The position numbers and the translations under genes are program-made. This document shows, in pieces, positions 26,385 to 38,945 of a DNA stretch of 44,647 nucleotides. The number at the start of each line of letters is the position of its first letter. Within the stretch, counting starts at the first letter, position 1. The notes beneath the pieces were generated by a model. That model was not told the DNA's origin. It searched no databases and worked only from the letters and a program-made list of their open reading frames with translations. This stretch comes from Bacillales bacterium UBA6331 (GTDB taxonomy: Bacteria; Bacillota_I; Bacilli_A; RF39; UBA660). Location: assembly GCA_002438065.1 (NCBI GenBank), contig DJSP01000093.1:4937-49583 (forward strand), in the 5' to 3' direction.

Positions 26385-26413
26385 TTGAAAATAGTATATT
26401 TAATTGCTATATT
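26385..26413 (+). promoter_or_regulatory. Candidate promoter of the island operon (TTGAAA-17-TATATT)
   Basis: ttgaaa at 26385-26390, tatatt at 26408-26413. An AAGGAAAGGA SD precedes the ATG at 26445. Confidence 0.5.
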
Positions 26414-26444
26414 AATTTTAATAAAGGAAAGGATAAGCGATTAA

Positions 26445-27782
26445 ATGAAAAAAACTTTTAATAATAAAAAATACATCGATTTACAAACTAAAAAATTAAT
26501 GGAGAGTATTAATCCTAGATTTGACCATGTATATTTAGAAATTGGAGGAAAATTTTTTGACGACCAACATGCTTCAAGAGTACTTTCAGGTTTTAATCCA
26601 AGCGTTAAATATGAAATAATAAACCAGTTAAATATAGAAAAAGAGTTTATTATTTGTATTAGTACCAAATCAATTAAAAAAAGTAAAAAAAGAAGGGATT
26701 CAAAAAAGTTGTATACTTACGAATGCTTTGAAATTGCAAAAAAGTTAAAAAATGACGGTTATAAGGTCTCAATATGTATAACCGGATATCACTCTTGTGC
26801 AAAAGCAAATTCATTTATAACAAAAATGAACAGTGAAGGATTTAATATATATAAATTATATGAAATGTCAGATTATCCATACAATCAAGAAAAAATCTTA
26901 TCAAAAGAAGGATTAGCACAAAATGATTATATACCTGTCGAAAAAAAACTTATTTGTATCATTGCACCAGGTCCAGATTCAGGCAAATTTGCAGCTGCTA
27001 TTTCACAAATATATCATGAAAATATCCTTCAACGTAAAATTTCTACATATAGAAAATTTGAAACTTTTTTAATACCAGAATTATCTATCAACAATCCAAT
27101 AAATTTAGCTAGCTCCATAGCAATGTGTGACGTTTCAGGTAATGATACAATCGATAAACGTTATTTTAGAAAAACTGGGAAAATATGTTGTTTAGATGAA
27201 AGAGACAATGCTTCATTTGAATTATTATATAAAATAATACCAGATGAAGATAAAGATGAAATAAGTTCCTTTTCTGAAACAATCATAAATTGCATACTTG
27301 ATTGTATATTTGATTTAGAAAGTGCAGAAAATCATGCCATCAAAGAAATAATTCGAAGATACAAAGAAGCAAAAAAAATGTATGATAGTGGTAAATTAAG
27401 TCAAATAGAATACAATGAAGCGCTACGCATTTATAACTTAATAAATTCTAAAATAGGCATGTCTGAAAACGAGATAAATTTTTTTCTTAAAGAAGCTATT
27501 GATTTTTGGGGATATGATTGTCAAAGTAATGTTTGTTTAGAAGAATTAGGAGAATTAATACAAGCAATATGTAAATATAAAAGAGAAGAATATGAAAAAG
27601 CACCACAAAAAATAAAAGACAATTTATTAGAAGAAATAGCCGATGTTCATAATATGATTAATCAATTAGAAATGTATTTTGGATATGAAGAAATTAAAAA
27701 AATTAGAATCAAAAAAATATTTAGAACTAGAGAACTACTAAGACAAGAAATGTTAGAAGAGTCATTGAAAGTAGAAAATTAA
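26445..27782 (+). CDS. DUF1846 (UPF0371)-family N-terminal region fused to a MazG-like all-alpha NTP pyrophosphohydrolase domain
   Basis: The N-terminal ~330 aa match the UPF0371 pattern as I remember it (YLEIGGKFFDDQHASRVLSGF, IIAPGPDSGKF, YRKFETF). The last ~100 aa carry EELGELIQAICKY...LLEEIADVHNMINQL, which is typical of MazG/dCTPase-like domains. Confidence 0.6.
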   Translation: MKKTFNNKKYIDLQTKKLMESINPRFDHVYLEIGGKFFDDQHASRVLSGFNPSVKYEIINQLNIEKEFIICISTKSIKKSKKRRDSKKLYTYECFEIAKKLKNDGYKVSICITGYHSCAKANSFITKMNSEGFNIYKLYEMSDYPYNQEKILSKEGLAQNDYIPVEKKLICIIAPGPDSGKFAAAISQIYHENILQRKISTYRKFETFLIPELSINNPINLASSIAMCDVSGNDTIDKRYFRKTGKICCLDERDNASFELLYKIIPDEDKDEISSFSETIINCILDCIFDLESAENHAIKEIIRRYKEAKKMYDSGKLSQIEYNEALRIYNLINSKIGMSENEINFFLKEAIDFWGYDCQSNVCLEELGELIQAICKYKREEYEKAPQKIKDNLLEEIADVHNMINQLEMYFGYEEIKKIRIKKIFRTRELLRQEMLEESLKVEN

Positions 27783-27783
27783 C

Positions 27784-28239
27784 ATGTACGTTTTTTTAGC
27801 ATCACCATTTTCCCAATTTTGTGAAGGATATGAAGACATTATTATTAAAGACAGATGGTTTTTTGAAGAAATAATTAAAAATTTAAAGAATAATAATATA
27901 GATTATTTTTGTTCTCAAGAACGCGAAGCATGGGGTGAAAAATATATAAGCCCAGATGAGAGTATCAATGAAGACGTGAATGGTATCAAAAAATGTGATC
28001 TATTTATTGGGATTCCAGGAAATCCAATTTCCGGTGGAGTTCATGTTGAAATAGGATGGGCAAGTATGCTAAATAAGAAAATAATTCTATTTTTAGATAA
28101 AAATACAGAATATAGTCCTATGATATTAGGATTACCAAGTTTGTTCAATTGTGATTTAATTTACTACGATAAGTTATTGACTATGAAAACAGTAAAACTA
28201 ATCACAGATGTAATTCAAAAGGAGAAAAAATGTATATAA
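27784..28239 (+). CDS. Nucleoside 2-deoxyribosyltransferase-fold protein (possible nucleotide N-glycosidase)
   Basis: 151 aa. The N-terminus is VFLASPFS, and GIPGNPISGGVHVEIGWASMLNKKIILF carries the conserved Glu. The fold family includes the CMP hydrolases BlsM and MilB. Confidence 0.55.
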   Translation: MYVFLASPFSQFCEGYEDIIIKDRWFFEEIIKNLKNNNIDYFCSQEREAWGEKYISPDESINEDVNGIKKCDLFIGIPGNPISGGVHVEIGWASMLNKKIILFLDKNTEYSPMILGLPSLFNCDLIYYDKLLTMKTVKLITDVIQKEKKCI

Positions 28240-37167: not shown

Positions 37168-37191
37168 AAAGTAATGCAGACCAATAATTAA

Positions 37192-37220
37192 TTGACAAAA
37201 TCAAAAAGTATGTGTATAGT
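37192..37220 (+). promoter_or_regulatory. Sigma-A promoter of the ABC-F gene (TTGACA-17-TATAGT)
   Basis: ttgaca at 37192-37197, tatagt at 37215-37220. Confidence 0.65.
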
Positions 37221-37267
37221 AAAAAACTAGAAAATTAAAATTTTTATATTTTATATGAGGTGAAATA

Positions 37268-38935
37268 ATGCAAATATTAAGTGTAAATAATCTAGGAATA
37301 AACTTTGGGTATGGAACTTTATTCGAAGAAGTATCATTCTCTTTAAATGAAAAGGAATCAATTTCAATTGTTGGACCTAATGGATGTGGAAAAACAACTC
37401 TATTAAAAATAATAGCAGGAAAAGAAAAAGAAGATAAAGGTTCAGTTTCAATAAAGAAAAATGCTAAAGTAGCGTACTTAGATCAAACCGGTGCAAGCAA
37501 AGACGATCCCCGAAAAGTATATGATATCTTAAAAGAATCGTTTAAAGAACTATTTGAAATAAGTAGACAAATTAAAGTAGCAGAACAAAAAATGAACGAA
37601 GATCCTGAAAATAGCAAACTAATTGATACATATTGCGAATTAATTGATAAATTTTCACGACTAGGTGGTTATGAGATTGATTCAAATATCAGTGCTGTTA
37701 TAAATGGTTTGAAACTTGACCCTAAAATATTAGAGCAGTCTTACAACGATCTTAGCGGTGGAGAAAAAACACTTGTACAATTAGCAAAAGTTTTAATTAT
37801 TAAACCAGATTTATTATTATTAGATGAACCAACAAACCATCTTGATATAGAAAGAATCGAATGGTTAGAAAATTATATCAAATCATTTCAAGGAGCAACA
37901 GTAATAGTTTCTCATGATAGGTATTTTCTTGATAAAATGTCTAATAAAATCTTAGACTTAGAAGCAAAAAATGGTGAAGTATATGATACAAACTATAGTG
38001 GTTTTTTAGAAGAAAAAGAAAAAAGATTCGAAAAACAAATGGCAAATTATAAAGATCAACAACAACTAATAAAAAAGTTAGAAGCTGAAATGAAATGGTT
38101 TGCTGAAAGAGGAATGGCAACAAATAGTACAACTCTAACAGCAAGAGCACACGCATTGCAAACAAGAATAGAACGAATCAAAAGCAACGCTATAGTTAAA
38201 CCAGTTAAAAGAAAGAAAGTAAATATTGAATTTAATGAAAATTCAAAAACAAGTAAAGACGTTATTACAGTAAGTGAATTATCCGTACTTATGCCAAATG
38301 ATGATATTTTACTTGATAATATCAATTTTAGTGTCCATGATGGAGAAAGAATAGCATTAATCGGGCCCAATGGATGTGGTAAATCCACTATTATAAAAAC
38401 TATATTAGGAGATGCCAGCTTAGACTATTGTGGTGAAATTAAAATCGGACCAAGTGTAAAAATTGGCTATATACCTCAAATAATTACATTCCCAAATGAA
38501 AAACAAACAATATTAGAATATTTTAGTAGGGAAACCGGATTAAATGAGCAAAAAACTAGACAAATATTAGCAGGATTCCATTTTTATCATGATGACATAA
38601 AAAAAAGAGTTGGTAACTTATCCGGTGGAGAAAAAATGAAATTAAAATTAGCAGAATTACTTCAAAAACAAGTTAATACATTAATATTAGATGAACCAAC
38701 AAACCACATAGATATAGACACAAAAGAAGTTTTTGAAGAAGCTTTAGATAATTTTGATGGAACAATGATATTCGTAAACCATGACAGATATTTTATTAAT
38801 AAATTTGCAGAAAAAATATTTGAAGTAAATAATTATGGAATTACAATATATAATGGTAACTATGATTATTATGTAGAGAAGAAAAATGAAATAAATTCAA
38901 AAAAATGTAATAGATTAGACTATCAAAATAGATAG
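37268..38935 (+). CDS. ABC-F family ATPase (two NBDs, no TMD), candidate ribosome-protection protein
   Basis: Two Walker A motifs (GPNGCGKTT, GPNGCGKST) and two LSGGEK signatures. A ~60-aa helical inter-domain linker (QMANYKDQQQLIKKLEAEMKWFAERG...). No membrane domain. Confidence 0.9.
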   Translation: MQILSVNNLGINFGYGTLFEEVSFSLNEKESISIVGPNGCGKTTLLKIIAGKEKEDKGSVSIKKNAKVAYLDQTGASKDDPRKVYDILKESFKELFEISRQIKVAEQKMNEDPENSKLIDTYCELIDKFSRLGGYEIDSNISAVINGLKLDPKILEQSYNDLSGGEKTLVQLAKVLIIKPDLLLLDEPTNHLDIERIEWLENYIKSFQGATVIVSHDRYFLDKMSNKILDLEAKNGEVYDTNYSGFLEEKEKRFEKQMANYKDQQQLIKKLEAEMKWFAERGMATNSTTLTARAHALQTRIERIKSNAIVKPVKRKKVNIEFNENSKTSKDVITVSELSVLMPNDDILLDNINFSVHDGERIALIGPNGCGKSTIIKTILGDASLDYCGEIKIGPSVKIGYIPQIITFPNEKQTILEYFSRETGLNEQKTRQILAGFHFYHDDIKKRVGNLSGGEKMKLKLAELLQKQVNTLILDEPTNHIDIDTKEVFEEALDNFDGTMIFVNHDRYFINKFAEKIFEVNNYGITIYNGNYDYYVEKKNEINSKKCNRLDYQNR

Positions 38936-38945
38936 TCTTTTTTTA
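38917..38945 (+). terminator. Terminator overlapping the ABC-F stop codon
   Basis: agactatc/gatagtct 8-bp stem, aaaata loop, 7-T run. Confidence 0.7.

What the first reader, a model, noticed from the sequence alone, without database searches (positions are those of the whole stretch)
26385..38945. Candidate biosynthetic gene cluster for a ribosome-targeting amino-sugar or peptidyl-nucleoside antibiotic with built-in self-resistance
**Operon structure.** Eleven co-directional ORFs (26445-37167) have overlapping or nearly abutting stop/start junctions (mostly 4-26 nt overlaps), so they form one translationally coupled operon. On the left they are bounded by the strong mnmA terminator and a TTGAAA-17-TATATT promoter. 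On the right lie an ABC-F gene with its own consensus promoter and terminator, then an HTH gene and the dif/terminus gap.

**Gene content.**
- DUF1846::MazG-like fusion
- nucleoside 2-deoxyribosyltransferase-fold protein
- radical SAM/SPASM enzyme
- GT-B glycosyltransferase-like protein
- DegT sugar aminotransferase
- two Fem/GNAT-fold transferases
- short DegT-like protein
- class I/II aminotransferase
- PHP phosphoesterase
- APH(3')-like kinase
- ABC-F ATPase

**Interpretation.** None of these is a core function. The order reads as nucleotide or base supply, glycosyl transfer, radical sugar editing, transamination and aminoacylation, followed by a kinase/phosphatase pair and a ribosome-protection-type ATPase. 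That is the logic of an antibiotic cluster.

**What is missing.** There is no NDP-sugar nucleotidyltransferase or 4,6-dehydratase, no 2-deoxy-scyllo-inosose synthase, no NRPS/PKS and no exporter. The chemistry would therefore be unusual. I know of no described cluster of this kind from such an AT-rich, reduced-genome-type lineage.
Basis: inference. Interest (0 to 1): 0.9.

Follow-up and report, generated by a model that had tools for sequence, protein, structure and literature searches.

The report
Cytosine peptidyl-nucleoside antibiotic gene island
A 12.6 kb strain-variable island in an uncultured, AT-rich gut bacterium most likely encodes a blasticidin/gougerotin-like cytosine-sugar-peptide inhibitor of the ribosome together with its own resistance genes, a kind of cluster so far characterised only in Streptomyces.

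Summary
Co-directional, overlapping ORFs run from 26445 to 37167, followed by an ABC-F gene.

- **It is an accessory island.** Close relatives with the same synteny have mnmA directly next to the HTH gene.
- **The gene content points to cytosine-nucleoside biosynthesis.**
  - O2 is a clear CMP N-glycosidase (BcmB/MilB/BlsM, E 1e-20 to 1e-25). All catalytic and substrate-binding residues are kept, and it has the non-hydroxymethyl signature.
  - O4 is a GT-B enzyme whose only curated relative is cytosylglucuronate synthase.
  - A radical SAM/SPASM enzyme and a DegT aminotransferase flank O4, as in the blasticidin and mildiomycin clusters.
- **Peptide attachment.** O7 folds as a FemX/Sba18-type aminoacyl-tRNA-dependent transferase. 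O6 is a weaker Fem-like GNAT.
- **Self-resistance.** The APH(3')-like kinase, the PHP phosphatase and an ABC-F that passes the ribosomal-protection model co-occur with the core in 14 rearranged loci.
- **Spread.** Related clusters occur in Clostridia and Bacilli MAGs, Paenibacillus and Xenorhabdus.
- **Defect in this strain.** The PHP gene carries a C-to-T nonsense mutation.

I found no prior description. Verdict: the peptidyl-nucleoside reading is supported in silico, as a new variant of a known kind. The product and its activity are untested.

The parts
26282..38945 (+). Accessory island as a whole (mnmA stop to ABC-F terminator)
   Evidence: In 8 contigs from close relatives (LepA in the same 90% cluster, identical flanking synteny), mnmA is followed after 116 nt by the HTH gene. 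The junction alignment places the insertion between the mnmA terminator and the conserved HTH promoter. There are no flanking direct repeats. A sibling lineage, L025, carries the island at the same site.
26385..26413 (+). Promoter-like site upstream of O1 (TTGAAA-17-TATATT, TG-extended)
   Evidence: It lies in the intergenic region and is the only strong + strand match there. Matches of this quality are at chance frequency across the region, so function is inferred only.
26445..27782 (+). O1: DUF1846 N-terminal domain (residues 1-330) fused to a ~110 aa MazG-like NTP pyrophosphohydrolase domain. Proposed to supply CMP from CTP.
   Evidence: Pfam DUF1846 3.7e-72; PDB 7f00 and 3bh1. The C-terminal domain has a conserved EExxE...EExxD motif and occurs as a stand-alone gene in L009, L010 and L013. 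MazG similarity is sub-threshold only. L011 and L012 carry a Ham1-type NTP pyrophosphatase instead.
27784..28239 (+). O2: CMP N-glycosidase (CMP to cytosine + ribose 5-phosphate)
   Evidence: PDB sequence hits: BcmB 4jen 3.7e-25, MilB 4jem 1e-22, BlsM 5vto 2e-20. The MilB residues F22, E62, D78, S97, G99 and E103 correspond to F9, E48, D64, S83, G85 and E89, all kept. MilB Arg23 is Ser10 here, the CMP rather than hydroxymethyl-CMP signature (rule from PMC4081090).
28230..29240 (+). O3: radical SAM/SPASM enzyme. Proposed radical editing of the cytosyl-hexose, in the BlsE/MilG position.
   Evidence: Pfam Radical_SAM 8e-20 and SPASM 2e-8. A CxxxCxxC motif is present in the sequence. NCBIfam BlsE model scores 80 bits over nearly its full length, but other SPASM families score equally. 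The gene is adjacent to the GT in all related loci.
29227..30330 (+). O4: CGA-synthase-like GT-B glycosyltransferase. Proposed to join cytosine and a UDP-sugar into a cytosyl-hexopyranose.
   Evidence: There is no Pfam hit. The only meaningful NCBIfam hit is TIGR04467 CGA_synthase, matched by 33 of 35 family members and by 108 of 109 more distant relatives, best E 2.4e-39. The AlphaFold2 model has pLDDT 93 and a GT-B fold nearest GT1 enzymes.
30327..31457 (+). O5: DegT/DnrJ/EryC1 sugar aminotransferase. Proposed to make the 4'-amino group.
   Evidence: Pfam 1.2e-75. Nearest NCBIfam models are the sugar 4-aminotransferases PseC and WecE, both below cut-off. The Schiff-base Lys190 is present.
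31447..32274 (+). O6: Fem-like GNAT transferase. Proposed aminoacyl transfer.
   Evidence: Weak Pfam hits to FemAB_like and Acetyltransf_6, in 3 and 4 of 10 family members, best E 3.8e-5. The family has 120 clusters, including Xenorhabdus proteins fused to a P-loop kinase. The fold was not modelled.
32249..33202 (+). O7: double-GNAT Fem-type transferase. Proposed aminoacyl-tRNA-dependent acylation of the sugar amine.
   Evidence: AlphaFold2 model with pLDDT 89. Best Foldseek matches are FemX (7z5y, TM 0.71) and the aminoacyl-tRNA-dependent peptide synthases Sba18/Sbb17 bound to streptothrisamine (9wqy, TM 0.69/0.76). Acetyltransf_6 hits in 7 of 10 members.
33195..34067 (+). O8: short, divergent DegT-like PLP enzyme (tailoring step, role unknown)
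   Evidence: Pfam DegT 9.6e-9 over the N-terminal part. The Schiff-base Lys and the D-x-x-Q motif are conserved across the family. Present in most related loci.
34042..35511 (+). O9: class I/II (fold type I) PLP enzyme, a variable tailoring gene
   Evidence: Pfam Aminotran_1_2 2.3e-27. Best NCBIfam model is GntC, 110 bits, below cut-off. Present in only a subset of related loci.
35537..36406 (+). PHP-family phosphoesterase, inactivated here by an in-frame TAG at 35957-35959
   Evidence: Pfam PHP 2e-13. The intact L007 homologue is nearest to 3',5'-nucleoside bisphosphate phosphatase, 122 bits, below cut-off. The gene is intact (284-316 aa) in all relatives. The codon is CAG in L025 and TAG here, and TAG is a normal stop in this genome.
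36403..37167 (+). APH(3')-like kinase (proposed phosphorylation of the product or an intermediate)
   Evidence: NCBIfam APH_3p 185 bits against a cut-off of 205; Pfam APH 2e-13. The HGDLSIPN and DMGDAG motifs are in the sequence. An ATGA overlap couples it to PHP.
37192..37220 (+). Promoter-like site for the ABC-F gene (TTGACA-17-TATAGT)
   Evidence: a consensus match only.
37268..38935 (+). ABC-F ATPase of the ribosomal-protection type
   Evidence: NCBIfam NF000355 ribo_prot_ABC_F scores 463 bits against a cut-off of 380. It is the only model passed; the EttA and Uup models fail. Absent from empty-site strains. Co-occurs with the core genes in 14 loci.
38917..38938 (+). Terminator hairpin closing the island
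   Evidence: -10.8 kcal/mol, z -3.9, followed by a T run.

Best explanation
The island is a biosynthetic gene cluster for a cytosine-hexopyranosyl peptidyl nucleoside of the blasticidin S / gougerotin class, carried together with its self-protection genes.

**Proposed pathway**
1. The MazG-like domain of O1 converts CTP to CMP (weakly inferred).
2. O2 hydrolyses CMP to free cytosine (strong homology, active site intact).
3. O4 couples cytosine to a UDP-sugar from primary metabolism, giving a cytosyl-hexose or cytosyl-hexuronate. This is inferred from its kinship to CGA synthase and from gene context.
4. The radical SAM/SPASM enzyme O3 activates the sugar to a keto intermediate (inferred by position and by analogy with BlsE/MilG).
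5. The DegT enzyme O5 transaminates that intermediate to a 4'-amino sugar nucleoside (inferred).
6. The Fem-type transferases O7 and O6 acylate the amine with one or two amino acids taken from aminoacyl-tRNA. The fold is shown for O7; the donor is inferred.
7. O8 and O9 tailor the product (role unknown).

**Proposed self-protection**
- The APH-like kinase phosphorylates the compound or an intermediate to keep it inactive inside the cell.
- The PHP phosphatase would remove the phosphate. It is broken in this strain.
- The ABC-F ATPase clears the drug from the producer's peptidyl-transferase centre.

The island is gained or lost as a unit between strains.
For: **Biosynthetic core**
- O2 is a CMP N-glycosidase with all MilB active-site residues and a non-Arg/Lys residue at the hydroxymethyl-sensing position (PMC4081090).
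- The O4 family's only curated relative is CGA synthase: 33 of 35 members and 108 of 109 distant relatives match it. O4 has a GT1-like GT-B fold.
- The O2-O3-O4-O5 cassette is conserved from gut Firmicutes to Paenibacillus and Xenorhabdus. It mirrors BlsM, BlsE, BlsD and an aminotransferase in the blasticidin S pathway (PMC3715490).
- O7 matches FemX and the natural-product aminoacyl-tRNA transferases Sba18/Sbb17. Fem-like enzymes build peptides in the pacidamycin, BD-12 and dehydrophos pathways (PMC12945691). There is no CoA ligase, ATP-grasp or NRPS in the island.

**Self-protection genes**
- The ABC-F passes the ribosomal-protection model.
- A kinase plus an ABC-F is the known self-resistance pair of the nucleoside antibiotic A201A, Ard2 and Ard1 (PMC12710036, PMC10201436).
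- PHP, APH and ABC-F accompany the core in all 14 low-GC loci with enough flank, despite changes in order and strand.
- Other variants carry different kinases and phosphatases: a P-loop kinase fusion in L041, and a kinase::O6 fusion plus GNAT::His_Phos_1 in Xenorhabdus.

**Accessory nature and rival tests**
- Presence/absence polymorphism at identical flanks.
- No phage association.
- No defence-system match apart from generic radical SAM similarity.
Against: - No metabolite, transcript or resistance phenotype is known.
- O3 and O4 fall far below the equivalog cut-offs for BlsE (80 against 400 bits) and CGA synthase (27.5 against 300 bits). O3 scores equally well against unrelated SPASM maturases.
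- The sugar donor is unknown, and the genome could not be checked for UDP-glucose dehydrogenase.
- O6 is only weakly assigned and shows no detectable relation to O7.
- The MazG assignment is sub-threshold.
- No exporter lies in the island.
- The PHP gene is a pseudogene here, so the pathway in this strain may be altered or decaying.
- APH and ABC-F genes are also common mobile resistance genes.
Confidence: 0.7

Rival explanations
1. A resistance island (APH(3')-like kinase plus an antibiotic-resistance-type ABC-F) lies by chance next to an unrelated sugar or nucleotide metabolic operon. On this view there is no producer-type self-resistance.
For: APH(3') and ABC-F genes are classic mobile resistance determinants. 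The APH scores 185 bits on the APH(3') model. The ABC-F has its own promoter-like site and terminator.
Against: APH, PHP and ABC-F travel with the biosynthetic core in 14 loci from different lineages, in different orders and orientations. All are missing together in empty-site strains. APH is translationally coupled to the upstream operon by an ATGA overlap. More distant variants replace the APH with other kinases rather than losing the kinase function.
Confidence: 0.07
2. The cluster makes a cytosine-derived small molecule that is not a translation inhibitor. Examples would be a pyrimidine antimetabolite in the manner of bacimethrin, a signal, or a modified nucleoside that is salvaged.
For: O2's best PDB match is BcmB from the Clostridium botulinum bacimethrin pathway. 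The target is inferred only from the ABC-F class.
Against: There is no CMP hydroxymethylase (ThyA/MilA type), pyrimidine methyltransferase or ThiD-type kinase. O2 has Ser, not Lys/Arg, at the hydroxymethyl-sensing position. A glycosyltransferase, a sugar aminotransferase and Fem transferases are present. The ABC-F passes the ribosomal-protection model.
Confidence: 0.12
3. It is a cell-envelope glycan or nonulosonic-acid (pseudaminic/legionaminic acid type) or peptidoglycan side-chain pathway, built from a DegT aminotransferase, a GT-B enzyme and GNAT/Fem enzymes.
For: O5's best curated model is PseC at 192 bits. A few distant O4 relatives hit PseG (9 of 109). Fem enzymes are classically peptidoglycan enzymes.
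Against: All scores are below cut-off (PseC cut-off 423). There is no 4,6-dehydratase, NeuB/PseI synthase, CMP-transferase, polyprenyl-phosphate transferase, flippase or polymerase. A CMP N-glycosidase has no role in such pathways. The locus is absent in sister strains. The O4 family matches CGA synthase in 108 of 109 relatives.
Confidence: 0.04
4. It is an anti-phage system that makes a chain-terminating or pool-depleting nucleotide analogue (viperin-like radical SAM enzyme plus NTP pyrophosphatase plus nucleotide glycosidase).
For: O3 hits the PADLOC pVip models at 75-77 bits and NCBIfam prokaryotic viperin at 66 bits. Nucleotide-degrading enzymes are common in defence systems.
Against: The viperin cut-off is 180 bits. 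O3 has a SPASM domain, which I believe viperins lack (my own knowledge). The pVip hits are no better than those to a dozen unrelated radical SAM families. No other protein matches PADLOC. Nine further biosynthetic or resistance genes are unexplained on this view. There are no viral homologues.
Confidence: 0.04

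Closest known systems
Blasticidin S / mildiomycin / arginomycin gene clusters of Streptomyces (BlsM/MilB, BlsD/MilC, BlsE/MilG/ArgF, plus the aminotransferase I recall as BlsH)
   Same: The opening logic is the same: CMP N-glycosidase gives free cytosine, a GT-B 'CGA synthase' acts with a UDP-sugar, then a radical SAM enzyme and a PLP aminotransferase follow (PMC3715490). No dedicated NDP-sugar genes are needed. 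The product class targets the peptidyl-transferase centre.
   Different: - O3 and O4 are only distant relatives, far below equivalog cut-offs.
- There is no arginine 2,3-aminomutase, ATP-grasp ligase, guanidino methyltransferase or exporter.
- Peptide attachment is by Fem-type transferases.
- Self-protection is by kinase, phosphatase and ABC-F rather than by leucylation or acetylation.
- The host is an uncultured 25% GC gut Firmicute rather than an actinomycete.
Gougerotin cluster (GouJ acyl-CoA N-acyltransferase with GouK)
   Same: A cytosyl 4'-amino-hexuronate core carries a dipeptide that is attached by an N-acyltransferase (as summarised in PMC11641026). Two sequential acyl transfers would fit the O6 and O7 pair.
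   Different: Gougerotin is proposed to use CoA-activated amino acids, and from my own knowledge its cluster has no radical SAM enzyme. Here there is no CoA ligase, and O7's fold is nearest aminoacyl-tRNA-dependent enzymes.
Fem-type aminoacyl-tRNA-dependent transferases of natural-product pathways (Sba18/Sbb17 = Orf11 of BD-12, PacB of pacidamycin, DhpH-C/DhpK, VlmA)
   Same: Double-GNAT fold. O7 superposes on Sba18/Sbb17 and FemX at TM about 0.7. These enzymes acylate an amino-sugar or peptidyl amine using aminoacyl-tRNA (PMC12945691).
   Different: There is no significant sequence similarity. tRNA dependence is untested. Two different paralogue-like genes sit side by side, and they are not detectably related to each other.
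A201A self-resistance pair Ard1 (ABC-F) and Ard2 (phosphotransferase) of Streptomyces capreolus
   Same: A nucleoside antibiotic producer protects itself with an ABC-F ribosome-protection protein plus a kinase that inactivates the drug (PMC10201436, PMC12710036).
   Different: Ard1 belongs to the actinobacterial AAF1 subfamily, whereas the subfamily of this ABC-F was not determined. Here a PHP phosphatase is also conserved in the set, which suggests a phosphorylation/dephosphorylation cycle as in streptomycin or polyoxin/nikkomycin.
Bacimethrin cluster of Clostridium botulinum (BcmB)
   Same: The best sequence match to O2 is BcmB, also from a low-GC Firmicute.
   Different: BcmB prefers hydroxymethyl-CMP (Lys at the Arg23 position) and works with a CMP hydroxymethylase, a methyltransferase and a kinase. 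None of these is here, and O2 has Ser at that position (PMC4081090).

Membership tests
CGA-derived cytosine peptidyl-nucleoside BGC (blasticidin S / mildiomycin / arginomycin type) | CMP (or hydroxymethyl-CMP) N-glycosidase of the BlsM/MilB family | tested here: met
   E 2e-20 to 4e-25 against the BlsM, MilB and BcmB structures. All six binding or catalytic residues are conserved.
CGA-derived cytosine peptidyl-nucleoside BGC (blasticidin S / mildiomycin / arginomycin type) | Cytosylglucuronate synthase (BlsD/MilC; NCBIfam TIGR04467 equivalog) | tested here: inconclusive
   O4 scores 27.5 bits against a cut-off of 300, so it is not an equivalog. CGA synthase is nonetheless the only consistent curated relative of the whole family (33 of 35 and 108 of 109 members), and the fold is GT1-like GT-B. 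Acceptor and donor are untested.
CGA-derived cytosine peptidyl-nucleoside BGC (blasticidin S / mildiomycin / arginomycin type) | Radical SAM enzyme acting on the cytosyl-sugar (BlsE/MilG/ArgF; TIGR04466) | tested here: inconclusive
   80 bits against a cut-off of 400. Other SPASM families score the same. The supporting evidence is conserved adjacency to the GT.
CGA-derived cytosine peptidyl-nucleoside BGC (blasticidin S / mildiomycin / arginomycin type) | PLP sugar aminotransferase forming the 4'-amine | tested here: met
   DegT family at 1.2e-75 with the catalytic Lys. Orthology to the blasticidin aminotransferase could not be tested because no reference sequence or model was available.
CGA-derived cytosine peptidyl-nucleoside BGC (blasticidin S / mildiomycin / arginomycin type) | ATP-grasp ligase and arginine 2,3-aminomutase for the beta-arginine side chain | tested here: not met
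   No such domains occur in any island ORF. An ATP-grasp-like gene is present only in the Xenorhabdus relative.
CGA-derived cytosine peptidyl-nucleoside BGC (blasticidin S / mildiomycin / arginomycin type) | A cytosine-containing hexopyranosyl nucleoside product | not testable with these tools
   Requires expression and LC-MS/NMR.
FemABX-type aminoacyl-tRNA-dependent transferases | Two tandem GNAT domains with a Fem-like arrangement | tested here: met
   The O7 model (pLDDT 89) matches FemX at TM 0.71 and Sba18/Sbb17 at TM 0.67-0.76. Acyl-CoA tandem GNATs match at TM 0.54 or below. O6 has weak HMM hits only.
FemABX-type aminoacyl-tRNA-dependent transferases | Sequence membership in Pfam FemAB / FemAB_like | tested here: not met
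   O7 has no hit. O6 scores 17 bits against a cut-off of 27. Family members hit the related Acetyltransf_6 model weakly.
FemABX-type aminoacyl-tRNA-dependent transferases | Use of aminoacyl-tRNA as acyl donor | not testable with these tools
   Requires an enzyme assay with an RNase control.
Antibiotic-resistance (ARE) ABC-F ribosomal protection proteins | Two ABC domains joined by a linker, no transmembrane domain, and a score above the NCBIfam NF000355 cut-off | tested here: met
   ABC_tran twice plus ABC_tran_Xtn. 463 bits against a cut-off of 380, while the EttA, Uup and specific Vga/Lsa/Msr/Sal/OptrA models all fail.
Antibiotic-resistance (ARE) ABC-F ribosomal protection proteins | Confers resistance to a ribosome-targeting drug | not testable with these tools
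   Requires MIC tests in a surrogate host.
APH(3') aminoglycoside O-phosphotransferases | Score above the NCBIfam NF033068 cut-off | tested here: not met
   185 bits against a cut-off of 205. Pfam APH is met, and the HGDxxxxN and DxGD motifs are present in the sequence. It is best described as APH(3')-like with unknown substrate.
MazG-type all-alpha NTP pyrophosphohydrolases | Significant match to MazG models or structures, and the EExxE...ExxD metal-binding motif | tested here: inconclusive
   The motif is conserved in 7 sequences. Pfam MazG gives E 0.035 for one homologue, and the PDB MazG hits have E about 0.6.
Prokaryotic viperin (pVip) defence | Score above the NCBIfam NF038283 cut-off | tested here: not met
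   66.5 bits against a cut-off of 180. The PADLOC pVip hits of 75-77 bits are generic radical SAM similarity.

The most novel reading that the evidence does not exclude
Uncultured, small-genome gut and rumen Firmicutes, and more distantly Paenibacillus and Xenorhabdus, carry a previously undescribed family of cytosine-hexose peptidyl nucleoside translation inhibitors. The peptide would be built by aminoacyl-tRNA-dependent Fem-type ligases, and the intracellular form would be kept harmless by a kinase/phosphatase cycle plus a dedicated ABC-F. Because the island is present in some strains and absent in others, it would be a strain-level weapon in the gut. Blasticidin-type drugs hit both bacterial and eukaryotic ribosomes, so the compound could act on neighbouring bacteria or on host cells.
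Probability: 0.5. Interest if true: 0.85.

Novelty: new variant of a known kind. Interest (0 to 1): 0.72.

Why it matters
- **New source for a known drug class.** As far as I know, the characterised gene clusters for cytosine pyranosyl nucleoside antibiotics (blasticidin S, mildiomycin, arginomycin, gougerotin) are from Streptomyces. A related pathway in abundant, uncultured, genome-reduced gut anaerobes would extend this class of ribosome inhibitors to the animal microbiome.
- **A different route to the peptide.** It would show peptide attachment by tRNA-dependent Fem enzymes rather than by ATP-grasp or CoA-dependent enzymes.
- **Candidate new resistance genes.** The ABC-F and the APH-like kinase would be dedicated resistance genes for this class.
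- **A natural experiment.** Island-positive and island-negative strains share the same flanks, so they can be compared directly in metagenomic, metatranscriptomic and metabolomic data.
- **A tractable relative.** The homologous cluster in cultivable Xenorhabdus makes the chemistry directly testable.

Tried and rejected
**Searches that gave nothing usable**
- Sequence searches of O4, O6 and O7 against the PDB, with single sequences and with profiles.
- Profile-profile comparison of O6 with O7. No relation was detected, so 'two paralogous Fem genes' is not shown.
- A profile of the O1 C-terminal domain against the PDB. MazG structures appeared only at E about 0.6.
- A scan of viral contigs for O4 relatives found none, so phage DNA-hypermodification is unlikely.
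- Rfam found no riboswitch, T-box or leader upstream of O1.
- No direct repeats or target-site duplication at the island ends, and no integrase or transposase inside. The mobility mechanism is unknown.
- Literature searches found no description of this cluster or of the Xenorhabdus relative. The library lacks most subscription journals, so a prior report cannot be excluded.

**Ideas considered and rejected**
- Assigning O3 specifically to BlsE. The score does not discriminate it from WgkB, AhbD, tungsten-cofactor maturase and others.
- A defence system. PADLOC returned only generic pVip radical SAM hits.
- The pseudaminic/legionaminic acid pathway (see rivals).
- Reading the TAG in the PHP gene as recoding. 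TAG and TGA both end ordinary genes in the window, and the sister lineage has CAG at that codon.

Full report

Yes. The ORF list shows an unbroken run of + strand ORFs from 26445 to 37167, followed by a 555-codon ORF at 37268-38935. I took start codons from RBS context and from the gene calls on identical public contigs. With those starts, the junctions in gene order are:
- a 1 nt gap;
- overlaps of 10, 14, 4, 11, 26, 8 and 26 nt;
- a 25 nt gap;
- a 4 nt ATGA overlap;
- a 100 nt gap before the ABC-F gene.

- The PHP gene (35537-36406) is split by an in-frame TAG at 35957-35959.
- The kinase starts at ATG 36403 rather than GTG 36352.
- Promoter-like hexamers are found at the stated places (26385-26413, 37192-37220) and a terminator hairpin at 38917-38938. 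Such promoter matches are no commoner here than in shuffled sequence, 111 found against 116 expected. The two hairpins fold at -6.8 and -10.8 kcal/mol.

The genome uses the standard code: TAA, TAG and TGA all end ordinary genes.

**2.

The exact O4 protein occurs on at least ten public metagenome contigs with the same synteny. The LepA of the window belongs to a 90% identity cluster of 660 sequences. I looked up the contigs that carry that cluster's representative. Eight of them have the same gene order as the window, from DnaJ to the ThiF-like gene. In all eight, mnmA is followed after 116 nt by the 258-residue HTH gene.

The junction alignment puts the 12.6 kb insertion between the mnmA terminator and the conserved promoter of the HTH gene. 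The ABC-F gene therefore belongs to the island, and the HTH gene does not.

Other properties of the island:
- A sibling lineage (L025, O4 89% identical) has the island at the same site.
- No repeats flank it, and it contains no recombinase gene.
- Its G+C (24.9%) is like that of its flanks.
- The host is an uncultured 'Bacilli bacterium', going by the name on a 90% identical RpoC.

**3. What the genes are.**

*O2 (151 aa)* is the key gene.
- It matches the solved CMP N-glycosidases BcmB, MilB and BlsM at E 4e-25 to 2e-20. Ordinary nucleoside deoxyribosyltransferases match only at about 1e-4.
- In the residue-by-residue alignment, MilB's F22, E62, D78, S97, G99 and the catalytic E103 are all conserved.
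- MilB's Arg23 recognises the 5-hydroxymethyl group. According to PMC4081090 this position is Arg or Lys only in enzymes linked to a CMP hydroxymethylase. In O2 it is Ser.
- O2 is therefore predicted to make plain cytosine from CMP.

*O4 (367 aa)* has no Pfam hit.
- Its one meaningful NCBIfam hit is TIGR04467, cytosylglucuronate (CGA) synthase.
- A single-sequence search found only 41 relatives at 90% clustering among 5.8 billion sequences. Of 35 aligned members, 33 hit the same model.
- A profile search of 1.84 billion representatives found 1188 relatives. Of the 109 more distant ones tested, 108 hit CGA synthase, best E 2.4e-39, and none reached the equivalog cut-off.
- The AlphaFold2 model (pLDDT 93) is a GT-B fold closest to GT1 enzymes such as OleI and YjiC.
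- O4 is thus a distant member of a CGA-synthase-like superfamily, not an orthologue of BlsD.

*The remaining biosynthetic genes:*
- O3 is a radical SAM/SPASM enzyme. It aligns over nearly the full length of the BlsE model (80 bits), but it scores equally against several unrelated SPASM families.
- O5 is a DegT sugar aminotransferase with its Schiff-base lysine.
- O8 is a shortened DegT relative that keeps that lysine.
- O9 is a fold-type-I PLP enzyme.

*O7 and O6:*
- O7 has no sequence-level annotation, but its model (pLDDT 89) is a double-GNAT Fem fold. The best matches are FemX and the aminoacyl-tRNA-dependent peptide synthases Sba18/Sbb17 in complex with streptothrisamine, at TM about 0.7. 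Acyl-CoA tandem GNATs match less well.
- O6 gives only weak FemAB_like and Acetyltransf_6 hits and is not detectably related to O7.

*O1* is a DUF1846 N-domain fused to a ~110-residue domain with a conserved EExxE...EExxD motif.
- That domain is a separate gene in three related loci.
- Its similarity to MazG is sub-threshold only.
- Two other loci carry a Ham1-type NTP pyrophosphatase instead. This suggests that an NTP-to-NMP step is a recurring part of the pathway.

*The resistance-type genes:*
- The kinase scores 185 bits on the APH(3') family model, cut-off 205.
- The intact PHP homologue is nearest to 3',5'-nucleoside bisphosphate phosphatase.
- The ABC-F passes NCBI's ribosomal-protection-like ABC-F model (463 against 380 bits) and fails the EttA and Uup models.

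**4. Comparative evidence.**

Scans of species-representative genomes and of metagenome contigs gave 28 related loci. I compared them with the window proteins by tblastn.
- O2-O3-O4-O5-O6-O7 is conserved in gut, rumen and other MAGs labelled Bacilli, Clostridia, Eubacteriales or Firmicutes.
- All 14 low-GC loci with enough downstream sequence also carry PHP, APH and ABC-F. In several of them these genes are in a different order or on the opposite strand.
- One divergent locus (L041) lacks those three genes. It has instead a small GNAT, a second radical SAM/SPASM enzyme, a B12-radical SAM enzyme, a methyltransferase and a P-loop kinase fused to a class III aminotransferase.
- Small GNAT genes sit near the APH gene in L009-L012.
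- Two Paenibacillus species carry only the O2-O3-O4-O5 cassette, with different tailoring genes and ABC exporters.
- The O6 family reaches Xenorhabdus, where it is fused to a P-loop kinase. In X. griffiniae that gene sits with homologues of O2, O3, O4 and O5, an ATP-grasp-like gene and a GNAT::histidine-phosphatase fusion.

Three protein-family solutions for 'kinase plus phosphatase' therefore accompany the same core. That argues phosphorylation is part of the pathway and not a passenger.

**5. Mechanism.**

Established knowledge of the blasticidin and mildiomycin pathways (PMC3715490; PMC4081090):
- CMP is hydrolysed to cytosine by BlsM/MilB.
- Cytosine is coupled with UDP-glucuronate by BlsD/MilC to give CGA.
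- BlsE/MilG act on CGA.

From my own knowledge, not checked here, later work reassigned BlsE as a dehydratase that feeds a PLP enzyme to give cytosinine.

On this basis I propose the following steps:
1. CTP is converted to CMP by the O1 C-domain (weak).
2. CMP is hydrolysed to cytosine by O2 (strong).
3. O4 makes a cytosyl-hexose or cytosyl-hexuronate (moderate).
4. O3 carries out radical oxidation or dehydration to a keto-sugar (moderate to weak).
5. O5 makes the 4'-amine (moderate).
6. O7 and O6 add one or two aminoacyl groups from aminoacyl-tRNA. The fold is shown, but the donor is inferred, partly from the absence of any CoA ligase, ATP-grasp or NRPS.
7. O8 and O9 tailor the product (unknown).

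Self-protection would combine drug phosphorylation by the APH, dephosphorylation by PHP, and ribosome clearing by the ABC-F. This parallels Ard2 and Ard1 of the A201A producer (PMC12710036; PMC10201436).

The CGA route needs no NDP-sugar activation genes.

In this strain the PHP gene has a CAG-to-TAG mutation, which is also present in three independent assemblies. The strain may therefore accumulate a phosphorylated form, or the pathway may be starting to decay.

**6. Rivals.**
- A chance neighbour resistance island is contradicted by the co-occurrence and co-loss data.
- A surface-glycan or nonulosonic-acid pathway lacks all its hallmark genes and cannot use a CMP glycosidase.
- A viperin-like defence system is not supported by the scores, by PADLOC or by the viral scan.
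- A cytosine-derived metabolite with a non-ribosomal target remains possible, because the target is inferred only from the ABC-F class.

**7. Novelty and verdict.**

I found no paper describing this cluster family or the Xenorhabdus relative. The library is incomplete.

The cluster shares the opening logic of a known kind of pathway. It differs in four respects:
- its core enzymes are only distant homologues;
- its peptide-forming enzymes are of a different type;
- its resistance set is different;
- its host is different.

I therefore rate it a new variant of a known kind. Everything beyond homology and context remains to be shown experimentally.

Noticed in passing
window 40130-40157: A dif-like site, ACTTCCTATAATATATATTATGTTAACC, matches 25 of 28 positions of the B. 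subtilis dif sequence as I recall it. It lies in the 780 nt gene-free gap. Cumulative GC skew peaks near 40000 and gene orientation flips there. A XerC/D-type recombinase gene lies at 41531-42466 on the minus strand. The island therefore ends about 1.2 kb from the probable replication terminus.
   Followed up: partly
window 35957-35959: A single C-to-T change (CAG in the sister lineage L025) creates an in-frame TAG in the PHP phosphatase gene. It is also present in three independent public assemblies. All other island genes look intact.
   Followed up: yes
window 26445-27782 (O1); L009:8226-8525, L010:8154-8501, L013:4268-4618: In O1, the usual C-terminal domain of DUF1846/UPF0371, a widespread family of unknown function, is replaced by a MazG-like domain. 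That MazG-like domain is a stand-alone gene in related clusters. The nucleotide-pathway context may be a clue to what DUF1846 does.
   Followed up: partly
L044 (Xenorhabdus griffiniae CP147738.1, 2783474-2804853), genes at 4388-15264: A related and apparently uncharacterised cluster in a cultivable bacterium. It contains a radical SAM/SPASM gene, an ATP-grasp-like gene, a DegT gene, a P-loop kinase fused to an O6-like domain, a GNAT fused to a histidine phosphatase, an O4-like glycosyltransferase and a CMP-glycosidase-like gene. Similar fusion proteins occur in at least nine other Xenorhabdus species or strains.
   Followed up: partly
L041:2833-12272: A divergent variant of the cluster without APH, PHP or ABC-F. 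It has instead a small GNAT, a second radical SAM/SPASM enzyme, a methyltransferase, a chloramphenicol-phosphotransferase-like P-loop kinase fused to a class III aminotransferase, and a B12-binding radical SAM enzyme.
   Followed up: partly
L016 (Paenibacillus faecalis) 2819-18986 and L015 (P. periandrae): The four-gene cassette (CMP glycosidase, radical SAM, CGA-synthase-like GT, DegT) sits with a PEP-utilising/PPDK-like enzyme, HprK-related kinase-like proteins, a DUF1152 protein, an endonuclease/exonuclease/phosphatase-family protein and two ABC exporters. This is probably a different cytosine nucleoside.
   Followed up: partly
window 39013-39789: The HTH gene next to the island is present in island-free strains, with its TTGACA-17-TACAAT promoter conserved. 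It is therefore a core-genome neighbour and not the cluster's regulator. LysR genes flank the related clusters L009 and L010.
   Followed up: yes
window 44398-44572 (minus strand): 6S RNA (Rfam RF00013, 50.3 bits, above the gathering score).
   Followed up: no
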